A stretch of DNA of 64,000 nt from an uncultured SAR86 cluster bacterium (GTDB lineage: Bacteria; Pseudomonadota; Gammaproteobacteria; Magnimaribacterales; D2472): positions 3,639 through 67,638 of the forward strand of contig CACJKN010000002.1 in assembly GCA_902594005.1 (NCBI GenBank). The letters are read 5' to 3'. Shown here piece by piece: positions 44,414 to 56,928 of the stretch (within the stretch, counting starts at the first letter, position 1; each line of letters opens with the position of its first letter). Position numbers and translations under genes: made by a program. A model generated the notes under the pieces. That model ran no database searches, had not been told where the DNA came from, and saw only the letters and a list, made by a program, of their open reading frames with translations.

Positions 44414-44489
44414 TGGAGCGGGTGACGGGATTCGAACCCGTACCAATAGCTTGGAAGGCTATTGTGCTAGCCGTTAACACCACACCCGC
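44414..44489 (-). tRNA. tRNA-Gly (anticodon UCC)
   Basis: Hand fold of the reverse complement: acceptor GCGGGTG/CACCCGC, anticodon arm ATAGC-CTTCCAA-GCTAT, T arm ACGGG-TTCGAAT-CCCGT, CCA encoded. 76 nt. Confidence 0.9.
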
Positions 44490-44511
44490 ATAGAGAAAGG
44501 TATTATAAAAT

Positions 44512-44537
44512 AAAAAAGGGGCATAAGCCCCTTTTTT
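44512..44537 (-). terminator. Intrinsic terminator downstream of the secreted-paralog operon
   Basis: AAAAAAGGGGC-ATAA-GCCCCTTTTTT, 14 bp after the stop of the 44552-45334 gene. Confidence 0.7.
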
Positions 44538-44551
44538 AAATTAAGTAAATT

Positions 44552-45334
44552 CTAATTATGAGTGTTGTAAACCATATGAGCTTGATATGTATCAGCACCA
44601 GAACATGACTCAATATGCTTAGATCTTTCTTTTCTTATGCCAGAATCTTCAAGAAGATCAGAAAATTCTGCCCAAGAAGAAATCATATTCATTCTGCTTT
44701 CTGCATTATACCAATGCGTCATCATAAGAAAGTCCCAATCAGCTCCAGTCTGGTTACCTCGGTATGGTGTGAAAAAACTTACCCCATAACCATTCAGCCC
44801 AAAGTCTTTAGCTAATTTTTCTTGTTTAGCATAAAGAGCCTTAAGTTCAGCAACATTTGCATCCTCAGTAAGCTTGCACCTTCTCCAATCAGTAAAAAGT
44901 CGTTCATCCCTATCTTCCATAGGAATTCTAAGTCTAAGGACTGAATGAAATCTCATTGATACAGCACCCTTAGCACAATCTCCAACATTCTGGGGCGGTA
45001 CATCATTATCGCTTGCCCATTTTGGGTAATCATTCATGTATGCACCCCATTCCTTGTATTGATCTTGACCGCTAGGCCAATTTCCCCACATGACGTAGTC
45101 ATATTCAGCATCATTATCCCAAATTGGTAATAAATTGATCCTGTTATACTGTAGACCTTTTTCTTTTAGAAAATCTTCATAAGGAGCTTGCTCTACCAAA
45201 AGATCAGCATAGCTTTTGCCTTCATTAAAATTGCAAAAAAAGAATTCAGATCTATGAATGTACTGATCAGATGTTTCTGCAAATGCAGCTACACTACTGA
45301 ATAAAATTGTAAATGTAATAACTAAATTTCTCAT
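44552..45334 (-). CDS. Secreted protein of unknown function, paralog 1 (internally duplicated ~100-aa module)
   Basis: Signal peptide MRNLVITFTILFSSVAAFA. Module 1 SEFFFCNFNEGKSYADLL...MWGNWPS, module 2 WRRCKLTEDANVAELKALY...MMTHWYN. W/D-rich. Shares its architecture with the next two ORFs. Confidence 0.6.
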   Translation of the reverse strand: MRNLVITFTILFSSVAAFAETSDQYIHRSEFFFCNFNEGKSYADLLVEQAPYEDFLKEKGLQYNRINLLPIWDNDAEYDYVMWGNWPSGQDQYKEWGAYMNDYPKWASDNDVPPQNVGDCAKGAVSMRFHSVLRLRIPMEDRDERLFTDWRRCKLTEDANVAELKALYAKQEKLAKDFGLNGYGVSFFTPYRGNQTGADWDFLMMTHWYNAESRMNMISSWAEFSDLLEDSGIRKERSKHIESCSGADTYQAHMVYNTHN

Positions 45335-45335
45335 A

Positions 45336-46088
45336 TTAGTTAGGAACTCTCATTCCATACCCTATATATGAAGTTGTGTTTTTACATTCCCACCCTTGCA
45401 TATTTTGAGCAGCTTCGCTTCCTGCTAGCTTCTCCCAAAATCTATCAGCATTTACACCCATCTCTGAAATGCTTGATGTGTACATTAGTCTATGAAAGTC
45501 TGCATCAGAATTTGTTTCTGTTGTTGGAACTATAAGCTTTCTTCCAACAGTATCACCATTTTCTTTAGCAAATTTTGCAAAATCAACATATCCATCGTAG
45601 ACATTATTAAGGGTGACGCCCTCTTCAAGATAACATTCAGAATAGGCCGCATACATTACCATACCTGCTTCAAGTGCAGCTGGTTCTGATACCGTCCATT
45701 GCCATGTATCAACGACAGCAGTATTAGTAATTGGTATATCACTAAATAGATCTATGGCATCATCATCCGTTGCCCAATTTTCTAAAGCAGCAAATTGAGC
45801 TGTAGGAGTTGGCCAAGTATTAACCCACATAAAATCATGAGATGATAAGTCACTGCTGTATTGTGGCCTTAGAATTGCAACTGTCATTGAATCCCAAGTA
45901 TCGCCTTGATCATCAGTCCAATCAGCAAAATCATCATACCAATCCATTAAATCTTCAAGATCTTTGCCTTTGTTAAAAGTTCCAAAAAAATACTCAGCCT
46001 TATTAGAAACAGGCTCATATTTATTTTCAGATTCTTGAGCAAAAATATTAAAAGAAAATGCTAATGAAAAAATCATTAAATATTTCAT
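45336..46088 (-). CDS. Secreted protein of unknown function, paralog 2
   Basis: Signal peptide MKYLMIFSLAFSFNIFA. AEYFFGTFNKGKDLEDLMDWYDDF...MWVNTWPT aligns with paralog 1. C-terminal WECKNTTSYIGYGMRV matches the paralog 3 end. 1-bp gap to paralog 1. Confidence 0.6.
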   Translation of the reverse strand: MKYLMIFSLAFSFNIFAQESENKYEPVSNKAEYFFGTFNKGKDLEDLMDWYDDFADWTDDQGDTWDSMTVAILRPQYSSDLSSHDFMWVNTWPTPTAQFAALENWATDDDAIDLFSDIPITNTAVVDTWQWTVSEPAALEAGMVMYAAYSECYLEEGVTLNNVYDGYVDFAKFAKENGDTVGRKLIVPTTETNSDADFHRLMYTSSISEMGVNADRFWEKLAGSEAAQNMQGWECKNTTSYIGYGMRVPN

Positions 46089-46215
46089 AAATATCCTCCA
46101 AAAAAAATTATTTTGATGAGAAAGATCTCTCCCTTAGATGTTTCAAATCTCTAATAAAGATTGTTTCAAGAACAAAAGGAAAAATCAATATATAGTTAAA
46201 AAAAACACCTAAAAA

Positions 46216-46947
46216 CTAAAAGACTTTATAACCGATGTATGAATTTGAAGAGAAGCACTCAGATTGCTCAGAAAAAAGATCTTTTATTTCAATTGAATCT
46301 TCACTATCAATCCAGCTAGCGTAAAAATTATCTCTATCTATAGAGGAATTAAAAAAGTTATGCCAGTAGAAGTTCCTTGAACTAGAATCTGAGTTAAGAA
46401 AATCAGCTTTATAAGAAATACTATACTCATTCAATAGGTTATAAAAATAATCTGAAGCAACCTTAAACGTTCCAAAGTTTGAATCTGGGCCAAATTCACA
46501 ATCTAGAATTTCTAAGTAGAAAATATCATCTTGCTGATCTAACTTTGAAATTAATGTAGTTGCAACAAGATTATTATTTTTTTGCAGACACTGAAATATA
46601 TTGTTTTCAGAATTAATGAATAAGTTAAGATTCTCTTGATCAATAGATTCTTTATTTTTTACATTGATTATAAAATTTTTAATTTCATCATCTTGGCTGT
46701 CTGAAAAATAAAAATCTAATTGATATTCAAAACTATGATTCTTAAGTAGTTGAGAAAGTTTAGGAATGTATTGCTCAAGGTCATTTAAGTTATTATTTTG
46801 ACTTAAAGTACATTCATATTGAGAAATAAAGTAGTTTTGGTTTGGCTGCATTAATTCAGAGAGATTTTGTTGATTATCTGAGACTTCGTTGCTACATGAA
46901 GCAAGAAAAAATAGAGAAATTAAAAAATTTTTATACGGCATCATCAA
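46216..46947 (-). CDS. Lipoprotein of unknown function, paralog 3 (very AT-rich, N/D/S-rich)
   Basis: Lipobox LFFLASC. YFISQYECTL...NDLEQYIPKL and FYLEILDCEF... modules. C-terminal SECFSSNSYIGYKVF. Confidence 0.55.
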   Translation of the reverse strand: MMMPYKNFLISLFFLASCSNEVSDNQQNLSELMQPNQNYFISQYECTLSQNNNLNDLEQYIPKLSQLLKNHSFEYQLDFYFSDSQDDEIKNFIINVKNKESIDQENLNLFINSENNIFQCLQKNNNLVATTLISKLDQQDDIFYLEILDCEFGPDSNFGTFKVASDYFYNLLNEYSISYKADFLNSDSSSRNFYWHNFFNSSIDRDNFYASWIDSEDSIEIKDLFSEQSECFSSNSYIGYKVF

Positions 46948-46960
46948 CTATAATCAATAC

Positions 46961-47917
46961 ATGAATAATTTTATCAAATTATATCTTTTATCTAGCTTAA
47001 GTTTATCTTTTATAAATGCAGATACTACTAAATTTGGTCTAGGTTCTTGTCTTGATCAAGATTACCCTCAACCAATTTGGGAAGCAATTGAAAAAGAAGA
47101 CTTGGATTATTTTGTTTTCTTGGGAGATAACGTCTATGGGGATTTACCCAGTGGATCTCTCAGAAAAATGGTAAGTGCCTATAAAAAACAAAAGAATAAT
47201 TTTCCTAAATGGATGGAAGACGTAAAAATTTTACCTATATGGGATGATCATGATTACGGCTTAAATGATGCTGGCTCAGAATATCCTCTAAAGAGACAAT
47301 CACAAGAGATATATCTAAATTTTTGGGAAATACCATTAGACGATGATAGGCATAATAGAGATGGTATTTATTTTTCAGAAGAAAAAATAATACAGGGAAA
47401 AGTTTTTAAACTAATATTTCTTGATACAAGATTTTTTAGATCTAAGTTGAATGGTCCAAAAGGAAAATATGTTGAAAATCTAGATCCTGATGCAACAGTA
47501 CTTGGAAGCTCTCAGTGGAGCTGGCTCGAGAATGAACTCAAAGATGAGTTTGATTTCTTAATAATATTTAGCTCCATTCAAATAATTGCCAAAGATCATC
47601 CTTACGAGAAGTGGAGCAACTTCCCTCTAGAGCAACAAAGATTGTTTAGCCTAATTGATAATCACAAAGATAACGTCTTGCTTGTTTCCGGAGATAGACA
47701 TAGAGGCGGTATCTACAATATGGATGGCATTTATGAAATAACTTCTTCCTCTATGAATAAGCCTGGCAGTTCTTTTGATGAAACTGACGAATATTTAATA
47801 GATGAAACTTACTATAAAGAAAATTACGGAGTTATTGAGATTGACAACAACTCCGTTCTAGTTGAATTATTAGATATAGAGGGAGAGATTATAAACAGTG
47901 TTAAGCTGTCTTATTAA
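46961..47917 (+). CDS. phoD: PhoD-like alkaline phosphatase/phosphodiesterase (metallophosphoesterase), exported
   Basis: Signal peptide MNNFIKLYLLSSLSLSFINA. FGLGSCLDQDYPQPIW, FLGDNVYGD, WDDHDYGLND, VSGDRH. Start moved to the ATG at 46961 (the track start 46889 would overlap the divergent gene). Confidence 0.75.
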   Translation: MNNFIKLYLLSSLSLSFINADTTKFGLGSCLDQDYPQPIWEAIEKEDLDYFVFLGDNVYGDLPSGSLRKMVSAYKKQKNNFPKWMEDVKILPIWDDHDYGLNDAGSEYPLKRQSQEIYLNFWEIPLDDDRHNRDGIYFSEEKIIQGKVFKLIFLDTRFFRSKLNGPKGKYVENLDPDATVLGSSQWSWLENELKDEFDFLIIFSSIQIIAKDHPYEKWSNFPLEQQRLFSLIDNHKDNVLLVSGDRHRGGIYNMDGIYEITSSSMNKPGSSFDETDEYLIDETYYKENYGVIEIDNNSVLVELLDIEGEIINSVKLSY

Positions 47918-47999
47918 TCTATAAAATTAAGACAAACTTTGCTTATAGAACTTTCCTTCATTAACTCGTCTAATTTTTTAAAAATTTTACTCATTTTAT

Positions 48000-48060
48000 T
48001 GTGTCCTAATTGTGACATTTACATGTCAATTTGTAACATTAATGTCACATAATAGACACA
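48000..48060. repeat. 60-bp imperfect palindrome in a convergent intergenic gap
   Basis: Hand alignment of 48000-48029 against the reverse complement of 48030-48060 gives 20/30 matches, in the blocks TGTGTC...TGTGACATT / AATGTCACA...GACACA. Contains the sub-palindromes TGACAT-TTAC-ATGTCA (48013-48028) and TGTAACAT-TA-ATGTCACA (48032-48049). Confidence 0.7.
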
Positions 48061-48080: not shown

Positions 48081-48968
48081 TTAGAGGTCTTCAAGCAAGA
48101 ATGGAGCAGCGGCTTGAATCATTTTTGAGTTTTCATGGGCTGCATTTTTGACAACTTGCAACCGCCATCTAAATGGCATATTTAAAGAATCTGCAATGAG
48201 AACATTTCTTTCAAAATAACGAATACCCCTTTGAAATCTATTATTGCCCTGCTCTTTTGCACCTTTATCATTTCTTAATGAACCATCATTAGGGTCTGTA
48301 TCTTCATCACCAAGCATAATCGCTCCTTTGACAGATAAGAACCATTTGAGTCTATCTTCAGATATAGGCATGTCTTTTACACCATAAGGATAATTAATAT
48401 CTTTTAAAAAGGTATACCATCCAGCATTGGCCATAACCGCTTTTTCAGCCCTGGTATCCTGACCAAATAAAAGATATCTATGTACAAACTGCGATCCACC
48501 TGAGTGACCATAAATTCTATATGAGTTCTCCTGAATATCGAATTTAGACCTAAAATAATCAAATATTAAACTGATTGAATCACTTAGAGAGTTACTAGGA
48601 TTATTTTGAGGTTCCAGACAATAGCCCGAATACTCATATTCACAACTCCTTCCTTGAGCGAGTTTTTTATCAACAACAAGAGAGTTATAGGACGGAAAAG
48701 CTGCTTTATCAAACTTTGGTGCAATCAGAATAATATTTTTATTATTCGTATATTCATACCATTTTGTAAAATATGATTCGGCTGTCCTTGATGCGCCATG
48801 AATAACAAAAAGGACTTTAGTATCCTCATTAACCTCCTCCGGAAGCGAATAAAAGATTTCTATATCTGGTTTTGACCAAAGTGAGAACGTTAACTTATTG
48901 AAGCTGTCTGCCAAAGAAGAAAAAGAGATAAATAAGCAAACTATAGAAAAATACAATTTTATGCGCAT
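48081..48968 (-). CDS. Alpha/beta hydrolase (esterase / PHB-depolymerase-like), exported
   Basis: Signal peptide MRIKLYFSIVCLFISFSSLA (start at 48968 preferred to 49025). Nucleophile elbow GHSGGSQF. VIHGASR oxyanion region. Confidence 0.65.
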   Translation of the reverse strand: MRIKLYFSIVCLFISFSSLADSFNKLTFSLWSKPDIEIFYSLPEEVNEDTKVLFVIHGASRTAESYFTKWYEYTNNKNIILIAPKFDKAAFPSYNSLVVDKKLAQGRSCEYEYSGYCLEPQNNPSNSLSDSISLIFDYFRSKFDIQENSYRIYGHSGGSQFVHRYLLFGQDTRAEKAVMANAGWYTFLKDINYPYGVKDMPISEDRLKWFLSVKGAIMLGDEDTDPNDGSLRNDKGAKEQGNNRFQRGIRYFERNVLIADSLNMPFRWRLQVVKNAAHENSKMIQAAAPFLLEDL

Positions 48969-49006
48969 ATATGCATAATAAAGCAAATAATAATTATTTA
49001 CACACA

Positions 49007-50110
49007 ATGATCTTTGATAATTCATCCATCAAAGCGATTCATGAATCGCCCTACAAGTTTGTAATTTCATCCAGTGGTGGAGGAACTAATGCAATTTCTA
49101 CTTTAATGGGTGTGCCAGGTGCAAGCCAATCCATTTTAGAATCTTATGTGCCCTACTCGAGAGAATCTCTAGATATTCATTTAAACAAAAAACCTGATCA
49201 TTATTGTTCACAAGCAACATCGCTTCATATGGCATCATTGGCATATAAGAAAGCATTAAAGATATCCGATATTGATAAAAAATATCTATTTGGTATCGCT
49301 GTAACAGCCTCTTTGAAGAGTAATTACAATAAGCTTGGTGAGCATAGATTTCACATCGCCTTGCAAAACGAGAAACAAACTGTAGTCATCAACTGTGTTC
49401 TTGAAAAAAATATGAGATCTCGTGAAGAAGAAGAAAATTTATTATCAACATTTATATTAAATTTGATATCAAAGTCTTGTGCTTTAGAGTTTGAATATCC
49501 CCAAATATCTGATGAGATAGAAATTAGTGAAGTTCATGGAGAAAAAGATTGGATTGACCTAATTGATGACAAAGTCGGCTTTATCTCCAATACAGCAAAC
49601 AAACCTGAATTAATATTTCCTGGATCATTTAACCCTCTTCATAAAGGTCATCTTAAGATGAAAGAGGTCGCGGAAAGGAAAACTGGAATGGATCTATATT
49701 ATGAAATCTGTATTGATAATGTCGATAAGCCGCCATTAACTTTCTTTGAAATCTCAAACACAATCAATCAATTTGAAAATGATTCCTGGGTTTTAACAAA
49801 GGCTGGGAGATTTATTGATAAAGCCAAATTATTTGAAAATGCTACTTTTGTTATCGGTTATGACACCCTAAGAAGATTATTTAATGAAAAGTATTATGAA
49901 AATTCAAAAATCATGAAGGAAAATCTAATGATCTTTGATGACTTCAATATAAACTTCCTAGTATTTGGGAGAAAAGATTTTGATAAATTTAGATCTCTTG
50001 AAGATGTTGATATACCAGCGGAATTAAAACCCAGATTTACAGGTTTTGATGAAGATACATTCAGAGATGACATATCGTCATCAGAAATAAGGAAAAAGGA
50101 ATTAGATTAA
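49007..50110 (+). CDS. Fusion protein: PncC/CinA-C-like (NMN deamidase-like) N-domain + NadD-like nucleotidyltransferase C-domain
   Basis: N-domain: FVISSSGGGTNAISTLMGVPGASQSILESYVPYSRESL parallels PncC TAESCTGG...GSS..F..G.V.YSN..K. C-domain: FPGSFNPLHKGHLKM (the (T/H)xGH motif) and terminal ISSSEIRKK (the ISST.IR motif of NadD/NMNAT). Start at 49007 (MIFDNSS) or 48971. Confidence 0.6.
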   Translation: MIFDNSSIKAIHESPYKFVISSSGGGTNAISTLMGVPGASQSILESYVPYSRESLDIHLNKKPDHYCSQATSLHMASLAYKKALKISDIDKKYLFGIAVTASLKSNYNKLGEHRFHIALQNEKQTVVINCVLEKNMRSREEEENLLSTFILNLISKSCALEFEYPQISDEIEISEVHGEKDWIDLIDDKVGFISNTANKPELIFPGSFNPLHKGHLKMKEVAERKTGMDLYYEICIDNVDKPPLTFFEISNTINQFENDSWVLTKAGRFIDKAKLFENATFVIGYDTLRRLFNEKYYENSKIMKENLMIFDDFNINFLVFGRKDFDKFRSLEDVDIPAELKPRFTGFDEDTFRDDISSSEIRKKELD

Positions 50111-56708: not shown

Positions 56709-56928
56709 AAAAAAAACAGAGCTTGCGCTCTGTCTCTTAGTTCGAGTTCCTCAAGTGTCTAAAGTGAGATTTTCTTTAGCTCCTTGGATGCTATCTCTTC
56801 ATCCTTGGTGGGTTTTAAAGCTATTTTTTATCGTATACTCTTTAAAACGCTTTCGCCTTGAGGGCTCTTCCTTTGATTTCTCTTAAGTTTCCGTCTGCAG
56901 TTGGTCTCTTATCGGTCCTCAATAGGTA
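56709..56928 (-). ncRNA. Candidate ~220-nt structured RNA (stand-alone sRNA or cis-acting leader of the pyk operon), GGA-rich
   Basis: Bounded by a near-consensus sigma70 promoter (56935-56962) and an intrinsic terminator (stem CAGAGC/GCTCTG at 56717-56732 followed by 9 U). No ORF longer than 3 codons from any ATG. Hand-found helices: GTTTTAAAG/CTTTAAAAC (9 bp), GGATG/CATCC, CTAAAG/CTTTAG, long-range GAG-CCTCAAG/CTTGAGG-CTC. Six GGA motifs. Confidence 0.4.

What the first reader, a model, noticed from the sequence alone, without database searches (positions are those of the whole stretch)
44552..46947. Tandem triplet of paralogous exported proteins built from an internally duplicated ~100-aa module with conserved Cys positions
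Sequence: three consecutive minus-strand ORFs (260, 250 and 243 aa). Two have Sec signal peptides and one has a lipobox (LFFLASC). Each has two similar halves that start with an aromatic-rich strand containing Cys or Gly: FFFCNF / WRRCKL; YFFGTF / YSECYL; QYECTL / ILDCEF. Each half continues with a helix-like acidic segment and a W/F-rich strand (MWGNWPS, MWVNTWPT). The C-termini share E/S-C-x5-6-Y-x-G/A-Y/H (SECFSSNSYIGYKVF, WECKNTTSYIGYGMRV, ESCSGADTYQAHMVY). I recognise no named family. The beta-alpha-beta-beta-alpha pattern is reminiscent of a ferredoxin-like/dimeric alpha-beta-barrel (ABM/NIPSNAP-like) duplication, but that is only an impression. Context: next to tRNA-Gly(UCC), divergent from phoD with 13 bp between the start codons, in a genome that otherwise seems to shed paralogs. 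Inference: candidate T2SS cargo or periplasmic binding/enzyme family, possibly linked to phosphate or organic-matter scavenging.
Basis: partly seen in the sequence, partly recalled or inferred. Interest (0 to 1): 0.6.

Follow-up and report, generated by a model that had tools for sequence, protein, structure and literature searches.

The report
Unclassified exported double-barrel protein family, SAR86
Three neighbouring genes in an uncultured marine SAR86 bacterium encode related exported proteins, each a duplicated ferredoxin-like module apparently held by one disulfide per half; they belong to an ocean-wide family that matches no Pfam, NCBIfam or solved-structure sequence and whose function is unknown.

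Summary
Three co-oriented minus-strand genes encode 260, 250 and 242/243 aa proteins. P1 and P2 have Sec signal peptides and P3 is a lipoprotein. P1 and P2 are clear paralogs (hhalign E 7e-10). P3 is a very divergent member, recognisable only with deep profiles (hhalign 90%, E 1.5e-6, all four Cys aligned).

The internal duplication is real: N-half against C-half profiles give 99% probability, E 8e-19. An AlphaFold model of P1 (pLDDT 87) shows two beta-alpha-beta-beta-alpha-beta modules. It matches tandem dimeric alpha+beta-barrel proteins (chlorite dismutase, coproheme decarboxylase, tandem ABM, 2pgc) at fold level only (TM about 0.5).

The family has about 362 clusters at 50% identity. It matches no Pfam or NCBIfam model and no PDB sequence, and all its members come from marine sequence data. 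It recurs as tandem arrays in SAR86. Cys co-occurrence argues for one disulfide per half.

Function is unknown. My lean is periplasmic cofactor-free enzymes, or carriers, for hydrophobic or aromatic compounds. That rests on the fold, a conserved Glu, and neighbouring exported hydrolases in other genomes. Links to phosphate or type II secretion are unsupported.

The parts
44552..45334 (-). P1: 260-aa exported protein with a Sec signal peptide (cleavage read as AFA|ETS); a tandem ferredoxin-like (DABB) protein with Cys34, Cys120, Cys153 and Cys244
   Evidence: ORF. Orthologs at 39-99% identity. AF2 model with pLDDT 86.9 and pTM 0.80. Foldseek PDB hits.
44930..45259 (-). P1 N-terminal module (residues 26-135): beta-alpha-beta-beta-alpha-beta. 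It carries the near-invariant Glu30, Gly39, Lys40 and Asp44, and the Cys34/Cys120 pair.
   Evidence: DSSP of the model, conservation over 76 members, N-half vs C-half hhalign.
44567..44902 (-). P1 C-terminal module (residues 145-256): the same topology, with the effectively invariant Cys153/Cys244 pair
45336..46088 (-). P2: 250-aa exported paralog (signal peptide read as IFA|QES). It lacks the N-half Cys pair (Gly36 replaces the first Cys) and keeps Cys152/Cys235. Its stop codon is 1 bp from the P1 start.
46216..46947 (-). P3: 242/243-aa lipoprotein (lipobox LASC, Ser at +2). It is a highly divergent, N/S/F-rich family member with Cys46, Cys120, Cys150 and Cys231. The likely true start is the ATG at 46944.
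   Evidence: Family membership. The AF2 model failed (pLDDT 36).
46089..46215 (-). 127-bp spacer between P3 and P2, with GGAGG 7 nt before the P2 ATG. No terminator-like hairpin was found here.
44511..44538 (-). Terminator-like hairpin (AAAAAAGGGGC-TTAT-GCCCCTTTTTT followed by a T run) 13 nt after the P1 stop. It is the likely end of the P3-P2-P1 transcription unit.
44414..44489 (-). tRNA-Gly(UCC). It lies immediately downstream of the array in all five syntenic loci scanned. In two relatives an additional family member sits just beyond it on the opposite strand.
46961..47917 (+). Short PhoD-like phosphatase gene, divergent from P3 with 13-16 bp between the start codons. It is a conserved neighbour in this syntenic slot only.

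Best explanation
SHOWN. P3-P2-P1 is a compact, co-oriented array of three paralogs. It is probably one operon that ends at the hairpin at 44511-44538. The paralogs belong to a protein family that matches no Pfam, NCBIfam or solved-structure sequence. All members were found in marine sequence data, and the GTDB species genomes that carry P1-type genes are SAR86 or related Gammaproteobacteria.

Each protein is about 250 aa and starts with an export signal: signal peptidase I type in P1 and P2, and a lipoprotein signal with Ser at +2 in P3. The mature protein is an ancient internal duplication of a module of about 110 aa with beta-alpha-beta-beta-alpha-beta topology. The whole chain matches tandem (pseudo-dimeric) alpha+beta-barrel proteins over its full length.

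INFERRED FROM SEQUENCE AND TOPOLOGY. Each half is stapled by a disulfide between the end of strand 1 and the start of strand 4. These are Cys34-Cys120 and Cys153-Cys244 in P1. P2 has lost the first pair. P3, with Ser at +2, is probably outer-membrane anchored under the standard Lol sorting rule.

The family evolves by local birth and death. The slot between phoD and tRNA-Gly holds 2-4 members in different SAR86 lineages, and arrays of 2 to at least 3 members occur at other loci.

INFERRED FUNCTION (my commitment, about 35-40%). These are periplasmic, cofactor-independent enzymes of the ABM/DABB type (oxygenase, isomerase or cyclase-like chemistry). They would act in the pocket between sheet and helices on hydrophobic or aromatic compounds taken up or released in the periplasm. 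Paralogs would differ in substrate, and one conserved Glu on strand 1, four residues before the first Cys, would be the candidate catalytic or ligand-contact residue. Cofactor-free chemistry would suit the periplasm, where no nucleotide cofactors are available.
For: Paralogy and duplication:
-.

Fold:
- AF2 model with pLDDT 86.9 and pTM 0.80, strands and helices in the order b-a-b-b-a-b twice.
- Foldseek PDB: 84 hits at E<=1e-3. All of the top 50 are tandem DABB proteins (coproheme decarboxylase, chlorite dismutase, anthrone-oxidase-like 5f9p, FN1347 3mcs, PenE 9kdp, marine metagenome protein 2pgc), aligned over 230-260 columns.

Disulfides:
- In 76 diverse members the four Cys columns read CCCC in 64.
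- Both N-half Cys are absent together in 11, and only one member lacks just one of them.
- Cys153 is invariant, and Cys244 is present in all 75 members that have a residue at that column.

Export:
- Hydrophobic N-termini, with Ala at the -1 position in 65/76 members.

Family size and lack of annotation:
- 362 representatives at E<=1e-3.
- No Pfam family is matched by more than 3 of 76 members even at E<=1.
- NCBIfam and PDB sequence searches are negative.
- Every source that names these proteins calls them 'hypothetical protein'.

Arrays and synteny:
-.

Functional lean:
- Glu30 is present in 74/76 members, and Asp44 and Lys40 are conserved in the N half only.
- In other genomes, family arrays sit next to exported alpha/beta-hydrolase esterases, a PETase-like protein, a carboxylesterase, small exported cupin-like and SnoaL/DUF4440-like proteins (weak, sub-threshold Pfam hits), FAD-dependent hydroxylases and TonB-dependent receptors.
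- SAR86 is described as specialising in lipids, steroids and aromatic or polycyclic compounds (PMC3358033, PMC11582366).
Against: - No activity, ligand or expression data exist.
- The fold match is only at topology level (TM 0.43-0.53, rmsd 5-8 A, 8-13% identity), so no function can be transferred from it.
- The neighbourhood association is with other family members in other genomes. In this window the nearest candidates are a PhoD-like gene, GGT, and a 314-aa exported protein with no Pfam hit and no significant similarity to those esterases.
- Several of the compared loci share synteny, so they are not independent observations.
- The conserved Glu, Lys and Asp could form a structural salt bridge. 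P3 lacks this Glu in its N half and has one at the equivalent position of its C half.
- An outer-membrane lipoprotein paired with soluble paralogs fits a carrier relay as well as it fits enzymes.
- The disulfides are inferred. I could not measure distances in the model.
Confidence: 0.4

Rival explanations
1. Periplasmic carriers for hydrophobic cargo. The outer-membrane-anchored P3 would hand ligands entering through outer-membrane transporters to the soluble paralogs P1 and P2, or the reverse. This would parallel the LolB (lipoprotein) and LolA (soluble) pair, which share one fold. Paralog arrays would then reflect a diversity of ligands.
For: - This array combines one lipoprotein and two soluble members. 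L028 has two lipoproteins and one soluble member.
- Many aromatic positions are conserved: W55, Y63, W82, W86, W99, F150, F202 and Y250.
- TonB-dependent receptors lie within 6 kb of arrays in L026 and L029.
- SAR86 is described as using lipids and steroids (PMC11582366).
Against: - Most arrays elsewhere (L026, L033) appear to contain only soluble members.
- Carriers rarely keep a near-invariant acidic residue across paralogs that share 15-20% identity.
- No DABB-fold periplasmic lipid carrier is known to me (own knowledge).
Confidence: 0.25
2. Haem enzymes of the chlorite dismutase / coproheme decarboxylase / DyP superfamily, which gave the best-scoring Foldseek hits.
For: - The top Foldseek PDB hits (E about 2e-7) are coproheme decarboxylases and chlorite dismutases, aligned over about 245 columns.
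- Some members of that superfamily are periplasmic (own knowledge).
Against: - No His is conserved anywhere: no His column reaches 55% among 76 members. The proximal haem ligand of that superfamily is therefore absent.
- No Pfam match to any family, including Chlor_dismutase and Dyp_perox, recurs among the 76 members.
- TM is only 0.44-0.48 with about 10% identity.
Confidence: 0.03
3. Only P1 and P2 are related. P3 is an unrelated low-complexity lipoprotein whose Cys spacing resembles theirs by chance.
For: - Pairwise BLASTP gives E about 0.01.
- Shallow profile comparisons give 1-33% probability.
- The AF2 model of P3 failed, so there is no structural confirmation.
- P3 is compositionally biased (N/S/F-rich; GC 0.287 over 46001-48000, a stretch that also covers the phoD-like gene).
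Against: - Deep profiles give 90.3%, E 1.5e-6, full-length and colinear, with all four Cys aligned.
- Composition-preserving column shuffles never reach the observed score for the family N-half profile against either P3 half (0/150 each); the C-half profile comparisons are marginal.
- A P3-only jackhmmer profile picked family members and none of the unrelated ORFs in the local database of roughly 1,000 sequences.
- P3 has the same length and export status as the others, and sits at the same position in the slot in L028, where its 31%-identical ortholog shows the family motif C-x-x-N-E-G.
Confidence: 0.08
4. Non-catalytic envelope proteins, for example structural or stress-protective proteins, or metal-buffering proteins.
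For: - About 13 of the 40 diverse members I read begin their mature chain with Asp-X-His, an N-terminal Cu/Ni-binding (ATCUN-type) pattern (by eye).
- Plant and bacterial Dabb proteins are stress-associated and have no known chemistry (own knowledge).
Against: - P1, P2 and P3 in this window lack that N-terminal pattern, so it cannot be the core function.
- Nothing else points to a structural role.
Confidence: 0.12

Closest known systems
Tandem (fused) ABM / dimeric alpha+beta-barrel proteins: anthrone-oxidase-like 5f9p, FN1347 (3mcs), monooxygenase PenE (9kdp)
   Same: Chains of about 220-240 aa made of two b-a-b-b-a-b modules that form a pseudo-dimer. Foldseek E 7e-7 to 1e-5 over 232-265 columns. 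No metal or organic cofactor is needed in characterised ABM enzymes (own knowledge).
   Different: There is no recurrent Pfam match of any kind, so none to ABM, in the 76 members. Identity is 10-13% and TM 0.43-0.48. The known proteins are cytoplasmic and have no disulfides (own knowledge). This family is exported and appears disulfide-stapled.
PDB 2pgc, a marine-metagenome protein of unknown function (structural genomics)
   Same: It has the best TM-score of all listed hits (0.53 normalised to the query, 0.63 to the target; rmsd 5.4 A over 233 columns). It is also known only from ocean metagenomes and is also a duplicated barrel.
   Different: The profile search of PDB sequences shows no sequence relation. 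It is shorter (206 aa) with 10% identity. Its function is also unknown, so it gives no functional lead.
Chlorite dismutase / coproheme decarboxylase (HemQ) / DyP superfamily
   Same: The same two-module fold, with the best Foldseek E-values. Some members are periplasmic (own knowledge).
   Different: There is no conserved His for haem ligation, no recurrent Pfam match, and TM below 0.5.
LolA / LolB (analogy of organisation only)
   Same: A soluble periplasmic protein and an outer-membrane lipoprotein that share one fold.
   Different: The fold is entirely different (an unclosed beta-barrel with a lid). This is an analogy recalled from knowledge and was not tested here.

Membership tests
Dimeric alpha+beta barrel (ferredoxin-like) fold class, tandem-fused form | Two consecutive b-a-b-b-a-b modules in one chain | tested here: met
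   For P1: DSSP of the AF2 model (pLDDT 86.9) gives E26-36, H42-58, E64-70, E80-85, H89-109, E124-135, then E145-155, H161-178, E183-190, E202-208, H211-238, E241-256. P2 follows by full-length homology. P3 follows only by profile alignment, because its own model failed.
Dimeric alpha+beta barrel (ferredoxin-like) fold class, tandem-fused form | Whole-chain structural similarity to solved tandem barrels | tested here: met
ABM (antibiotic biosynthesis monooxygenase) and NIPSNAP Pfam families | Sequence match to the family model | tested here: not met
   No Pfam family was matched by more than 3 of 76 diverse members at E<=1, and neither ABM nor NIPSNAP appears in the list. P1-P3 have no Pfam hit above threshold.
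Chlorite dismutase / HemQ / DyP haem enzymes | Conserved proximal His that ligates haem in the C-terminal module | tested here: not met
   No His column reaches 55% conservation in 76 members.
Chlorite dismutase / HemQ / DyP haem enzymes | Sequence match to the family models | tested here: not met
Bacterial lipoproteins (P3 only) | Lipobox [LVI][ASTVI][GAS]C at the end of a hydrophobic signal sequence | tested here: met
   The sequence reads FLISLFFLASC|SNE. S17 and C18 are invariant in the 14-sequence alignment A3, and the distant ortholog in L028 has IFSC|GNS. This was read by eye, with no predictor run.
Sec-exported proteins (P1, P2) | An N-terminal n-h-c signal peptide with an AXA-type cleavage site | tested here: inconclusive
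   The sequences read MRNLVITFTILFSSVAAFA|E and MKYLMIFSLAFSFNIFA|Q. Ala at -1 occurs in 65/76 family members. No signal-peptide predictor was available and there is no experimental localisation.
Disulfide-stapled module (a feature proposed here) | Cys pairs that co-occur, and are close in space | tested here: inconclusive
   Co-occurrence is met: CCCC in 64 of 76 members, both N-half Cys absent together in 11, and only one absent in 1. It is only inferred from strand 1 and strand 4 being neighbours in this fold.
Pho regulon member | A Pho-box upstream of the operon | tested here: not met
   An E. coli-type Pho-box pattern with up to 3 mismatches gave 13 hits in the window against 16.9 expected, and none near 46900-47000. 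The SAR86 Pho-box is unknown, so this is a weak test.

The most novel reading that the evidence does not exclude
The family is a new class of exported, disulfide-stapled, cofactor-free enzymes, or a lipoprotein-plus-soluble carrier relay. SAR86 would use it in the periplasm to transform or shuttle hydrophobic or aromatic dissolved organic matter. Tandem paralog arrays would set substrate range, making the family a lineage-specific determinant of the SAR86 niche in the surface ocean.
Probability: 0.25. Interest if true: 0.7.

Novelty: new variant of a known kind. Interest (0 to 1): 0.45.

Why it matters
[quoted passage not shown] Its genomes are streamlined, so a family kept as tandem arrays of very divergent exported paralogs is likely to matter for how the cell deals with its surroundings.

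The family is common in ocean data. The exact P2 sequence was seen on 713 contigs, and the 90%-identity cluster of P3 has 1,400 member sequences. It is nevertheless annotated everywhere as 'hypothetical protein' and matches no Pfam, NCBIfam or PDB sequence.

This report gives the family a fold, a domain architecture, probable disulfides, candidate functional residues and a genomic pattern. That makes it a tractable target for structure determination and ligand screening. The SAR86 isolate described in PMC11582366 now makes cell fractionation and expression tests possible in principle.

Tried and rejected
1. AF2 model of P3 from its 14 close orthologs: it failed (pLDDT 36), so I did not use it for fold search.
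3. Profile search of PDB sequences: only noise (NDUFS5, E about 1).
4. Pfam on P1-P3 and on 76 diverse members, and NCBIfam on P1-P3: nothing consistent. The Imm75 hit to P2 (E 0.005, below the cut-off, 26 residues) is rejected as chance.
5. Pho-box pattern: fewer hits than expected by chance and none at the locus.
6. tblastn against plasmid and phage collections: no match. There is therefore no sign of a mobile-element origin.
7. Test of whether the window's 314-aa exported protein (48081-49025) is homologous to the esterases next to arrays in L026 and L020: not significant, and it has no Pfam hit. The esterase association cannot be claimed for this window.
8. Several neighbourhood look-ups returned contigs too short to be informative.
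9. Literature searches for 2pgc and for SAR86 exported hypothetical proteins: nothing specific to this family.
10. The script machine was lost. Systematic neighbour clustering and counting of N-terminal motifs could not be done.
Full report
WHAT IS THERE

The window is low-GC (about 0.33). It is 99% identical over the P1 gene to a single-cell genome labelled uncultured SAR86 cluster bacterium AG-894-D08 (L007).

At 44552-46947 there are three co-oriented minus-strand ORFs:
- P1, 260 aa, at 44552-45334.
- P2, 250 aa, at 45336-46088.
- P3, 243 aa from a TTG at 46947, or 242 aa from the ATG at 46944 that ortholog gene calls use.

The P2 stop and the P1 start are 1 bp apart. P3 and P2 are separated by 127 bp, with GGAGG ahead of P2 and no terminator-like hairpin. 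A strong terminator-like hairpin follows P1 at 44511-44538, and tRNA-Gly(UCC) comes next at 44414-44489. The phoD-like gene starts at the ATG at 46961 on the other strand, 13-16 bp from the P3 start.

ARE THEY PARALOGS?

P1 and P2 are clearly related: BLASTP E 4e-9 at 23% identity, and hhalign of their ortholog alignments gives 96.6%, E 6.7e-10 over 227 columns.

P3 is a different case. Pairwise and shallow-profile comparisons are not significant. Three further lines of evidence link it to the family.
- The family N-half profile scores 24.3 against the C half of P3 and 21.8 against its N half. Column-shuffled nulls give 11.0 +/- 2.1 and 10.0 +/- 2.4, and 0 of 150 shuffles reach the observed score in either case.
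In round 2 it picked family members (4e-6 for P0120 and P0112, 8e-4 for the window's own P1) and no unrelated ORF. It then converged on the whole family.
- A syntenic Tara scaffold (L028) carries a 31%-identical P3 ortholog. With it added to the P3 profile, hhalign against 76 diverse family members gives 90.3%, E 1.5e-6 over 206 colinear columns. All four Cys align: P1 34/120/153/244 with P3 46/120/150/231.

I take P3 to be a true but very divergent member, at about 90% confidence.

INTERNAL DUPLICATION AND FOLD

N-half against C-half profiles give 90%, E 1.6e-6 within the P1 subfamily. Across the whole family they give 99.1%, E 8e-19 over 104 columns.

An AF2 model of P1 was built on a 35-sequence alignment of P1 and P2 relatives. 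It has pLDDT 86.9 and pTM 0.80, and shows b-a-b-b-a-b twice.

Foldseek against the PDB returns 84 hits at E<=1e-3. The listed top 50 are all tandem dimeric alpha+beta-barrel proteins: coproheme decarboxylases, chlorite dismutases, the tandem ABM proteins 5f9p, 3mcs and 9kdp, and the marine-metagenome protein 2pgc. The last has the best TM-score (0.53/0.63). Identities are 8-13% and TM is 0.40-0.53, so this is fold-class similarity and not family membership.

THE FAMILY

- Each of the three proteins has its own ortholog group, found in marine metagenomes and single-cell genomes.
- An exhaustive profile search finds 362 50%-identity cluster representatives at E<=1e-3. The full-length ones are nearly all 244-264 aa.
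- No Pfam family is matched by more than 3 of 76 diverse members even at E<=1. NCBIfam and PDB sequence searches are negative. Source names are all 'hypothetical protein'.
- Species-representative genomes carrying P1-type genes are almost all SAR86 or unclassified Gammaproteobacteria MAGs.
- One cluster member is labelled Nitrosomonadaceae and one locus Lewinella. I cannot tell whether these reflect real spread or binning error.

CONSERVED FEATURES (76 members at about 15-25% pairwise identity)

- Cys153 is invariant, and Cys244 is present in all 75 members that have a residue at that column.
- Cys34 and Cys120 are both present in 64 members, both absent in 11 (P2 is one of these), and singly absent in one.
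- In this fold strand 1 and strand 4 are antiparallel neighbours. Each Cys pair sits at the end of strand 1 and just before or at the start of strand 4. One disulfide per module is therefore the natural reading for an exported protein. This is an inference, because I could not measure distances.
- Gly39/Gly158, Pro70/Pro190 and Asp79/Asp201 are equivalent positions in the two halves and are probably structural.
- Glu30 (74/76), Lys40 and Asp44 are conserved in the N half only, an asymmetry typical of duplicated proteins that keep one functional site.
- In P3 the Glu four residues before the Cys is in the C half (Glu146, invariant).
- No His is conserved.

GENOMIC PATTERN

- The order phoD-like | P3 P2 P1 | tRNA-Gly | prepilin peptidase | GGT is conserved in the SAR86 lineages examined (L001-L004). 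Loci L007-L011 and L019 carry the same P3-P2-P1 array.
- The content of the slot varies. L003 and L028 have an extra member beyond the tRNA on the opposite strand. L028 has only one soluble member between the P3 ortholog and the tRNA.
- Elsewhere, P1-type genes occur alone or in arrays of two or three (L020-L026). Unrelated contigs show three consecutive full-length co-oriented genes of 250-258 aa plus a truncated fourth (L033) or flanking genes of similar size (L036). I read family motifs in the three L033 genes by eye but did not test L036's neighbours.
- This is birth-and-death evolution of a locally duplicating family in an otherwise streamlined genome.

FUNCTION

Nothing tests function directly, so what follows is inference.

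In other genomes, arrays lie next to the following:
- an exported esterase (Abhydrolase_2 / Peptidase_S9 hits; an Esterase_PHB hit lies just below its cut-off) and an FAD-dependent hydroxylase (L026);
- a carboxylesterase, an acyl-CoA synthetase, an SDR, an AraC regulator and a TonB-dependent receptor (L029);
- exported cupin-like and SnoaL/DUF4440-like small proteins (both weak, sub-threshold Pfam hits), a PETase-like protein, an esterase and peptidase M2 (L005, L016, L020).

Several of these loci are syntenic with each other, so the number of independent contexts is small, perhaps four. In the window itself the neighbours are a PhoD-like gene, GGT, a prepilin peptidase and an unclassified exported 314-aa protein.

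Taken with the fold (mostly cofactor-free enzymes among characterised relatives, own knowledge), the conserved Glu, and published views of SAR86 as a consumer of lipids, steroids and aromatic compounds (PMC3358033, PMC11582366), I lean as follows:
- periplasmic cofactor-independent enzymes acting on hydrophobic or aromatic substrates, about 35-40%;
- a carrier relay between lipoprotein and soluble members as the main rival, about 25%;
- a haem enzyme of the chlorite dismutase type, effectively excluded (no His, no model match).

A phosphate link is not supported (phoD adjacency is limited to one slot). Type II secretion was not tested.

VERDICT

The functional guesses remain open.

This is a real, previously unclassified family within a well-known fold class. 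Its distinctive features are export, one apparent disulfide per half, and tandem paralog arrays in SAR86. It is moderately interesting: ordinary in kind, but abundant in the ocean, uncharacterised, and now well enough defined to test.

Noticed in passing
window 56733-56921 (-): A full-length IMES-1 RNA motif (RF02034) scoring 198 bits against a gathering score of 81. As far as I recall, IMES-1 was described only from marine environmental sequences with no host assigned. Here it sits in a SAR86 genome.
   Followed up: no
family members P0108, P0120, P0143, P0159, P0160, P0166, P0169, P0176, P0177, P0188, P0189, P0196 (and possibly P0182); L026 6458-7997; L020 7583-7978 and 8738-9247: About a third of the diverse family members I read start their predicted mature chain with Asp-X-His (DDH, DNH, DAH, DQH, DHH). 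This is an N-terminal Cu/Ni-binding (ATCUN-type) pattern. The same D-H motif follows the signal peptide of the unrelated exported cupin-like and SnoaL-like neighbours in L020. Many other members start with Gln-Glu/Asp. P1, P2 and P3 of this window lack the His motif. I counted by eye only.
   Followed up: partly
L026 4658-5362 (+): An exported 234-aa protein with no Pfam hit lies two genes upstream of a three-member array. By eye it looks like a Cys-less two-module beta-alpha-beta protein (YIASYSVKV... and VYTIYRMEV...). It may be another exported barrel family.
   Followed up: no
window 46944-46961: The divergent start codons of P3 and the phoD-like gene are only 13-16 bp apart, so each promoter must lie inside the other gene. 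The same spacing (16 bp) is kept in L001.
   Followed up: partly
window 48081-49025 (-): A 314-aa ORF with a signal-peptide-like N-terminus and a GHSGGS motif that suggests an alpha/beta hydrolase. It has no Pfam or NCBIfam hit and no significant similarity to the esterases next to family arrays in L026 and L020. The ORFs as listed overlap by 55 bp at their 5' ends with the divergent CTP_transf_like gene at 48971-50110.
   Followed up: partly
window 46961-47917 (+): The PhoD-like protein is short: 319 aa from its ATG, against a 574-position NCBIfam PhoD model. It matches only part of the PhoD models (Pfam 68.7 bits, NCBIfam 28.5 bits against a cut-off of 1000). It is a metallophosphatase of the PhoD type but not a canonical PhoD.
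   Followed up: no
L003 3223-3972 (-) and L028 6841-7563 (-): In two related genomes an additional family member sits directly beyond tRNA-Gly(UCC) on the opposite strand. The one in L028 is a lipoprotein. This member is absent from the window, where only 108 bp separate the tRNA from the prepilin peptidase gene.
   Followed up: partly
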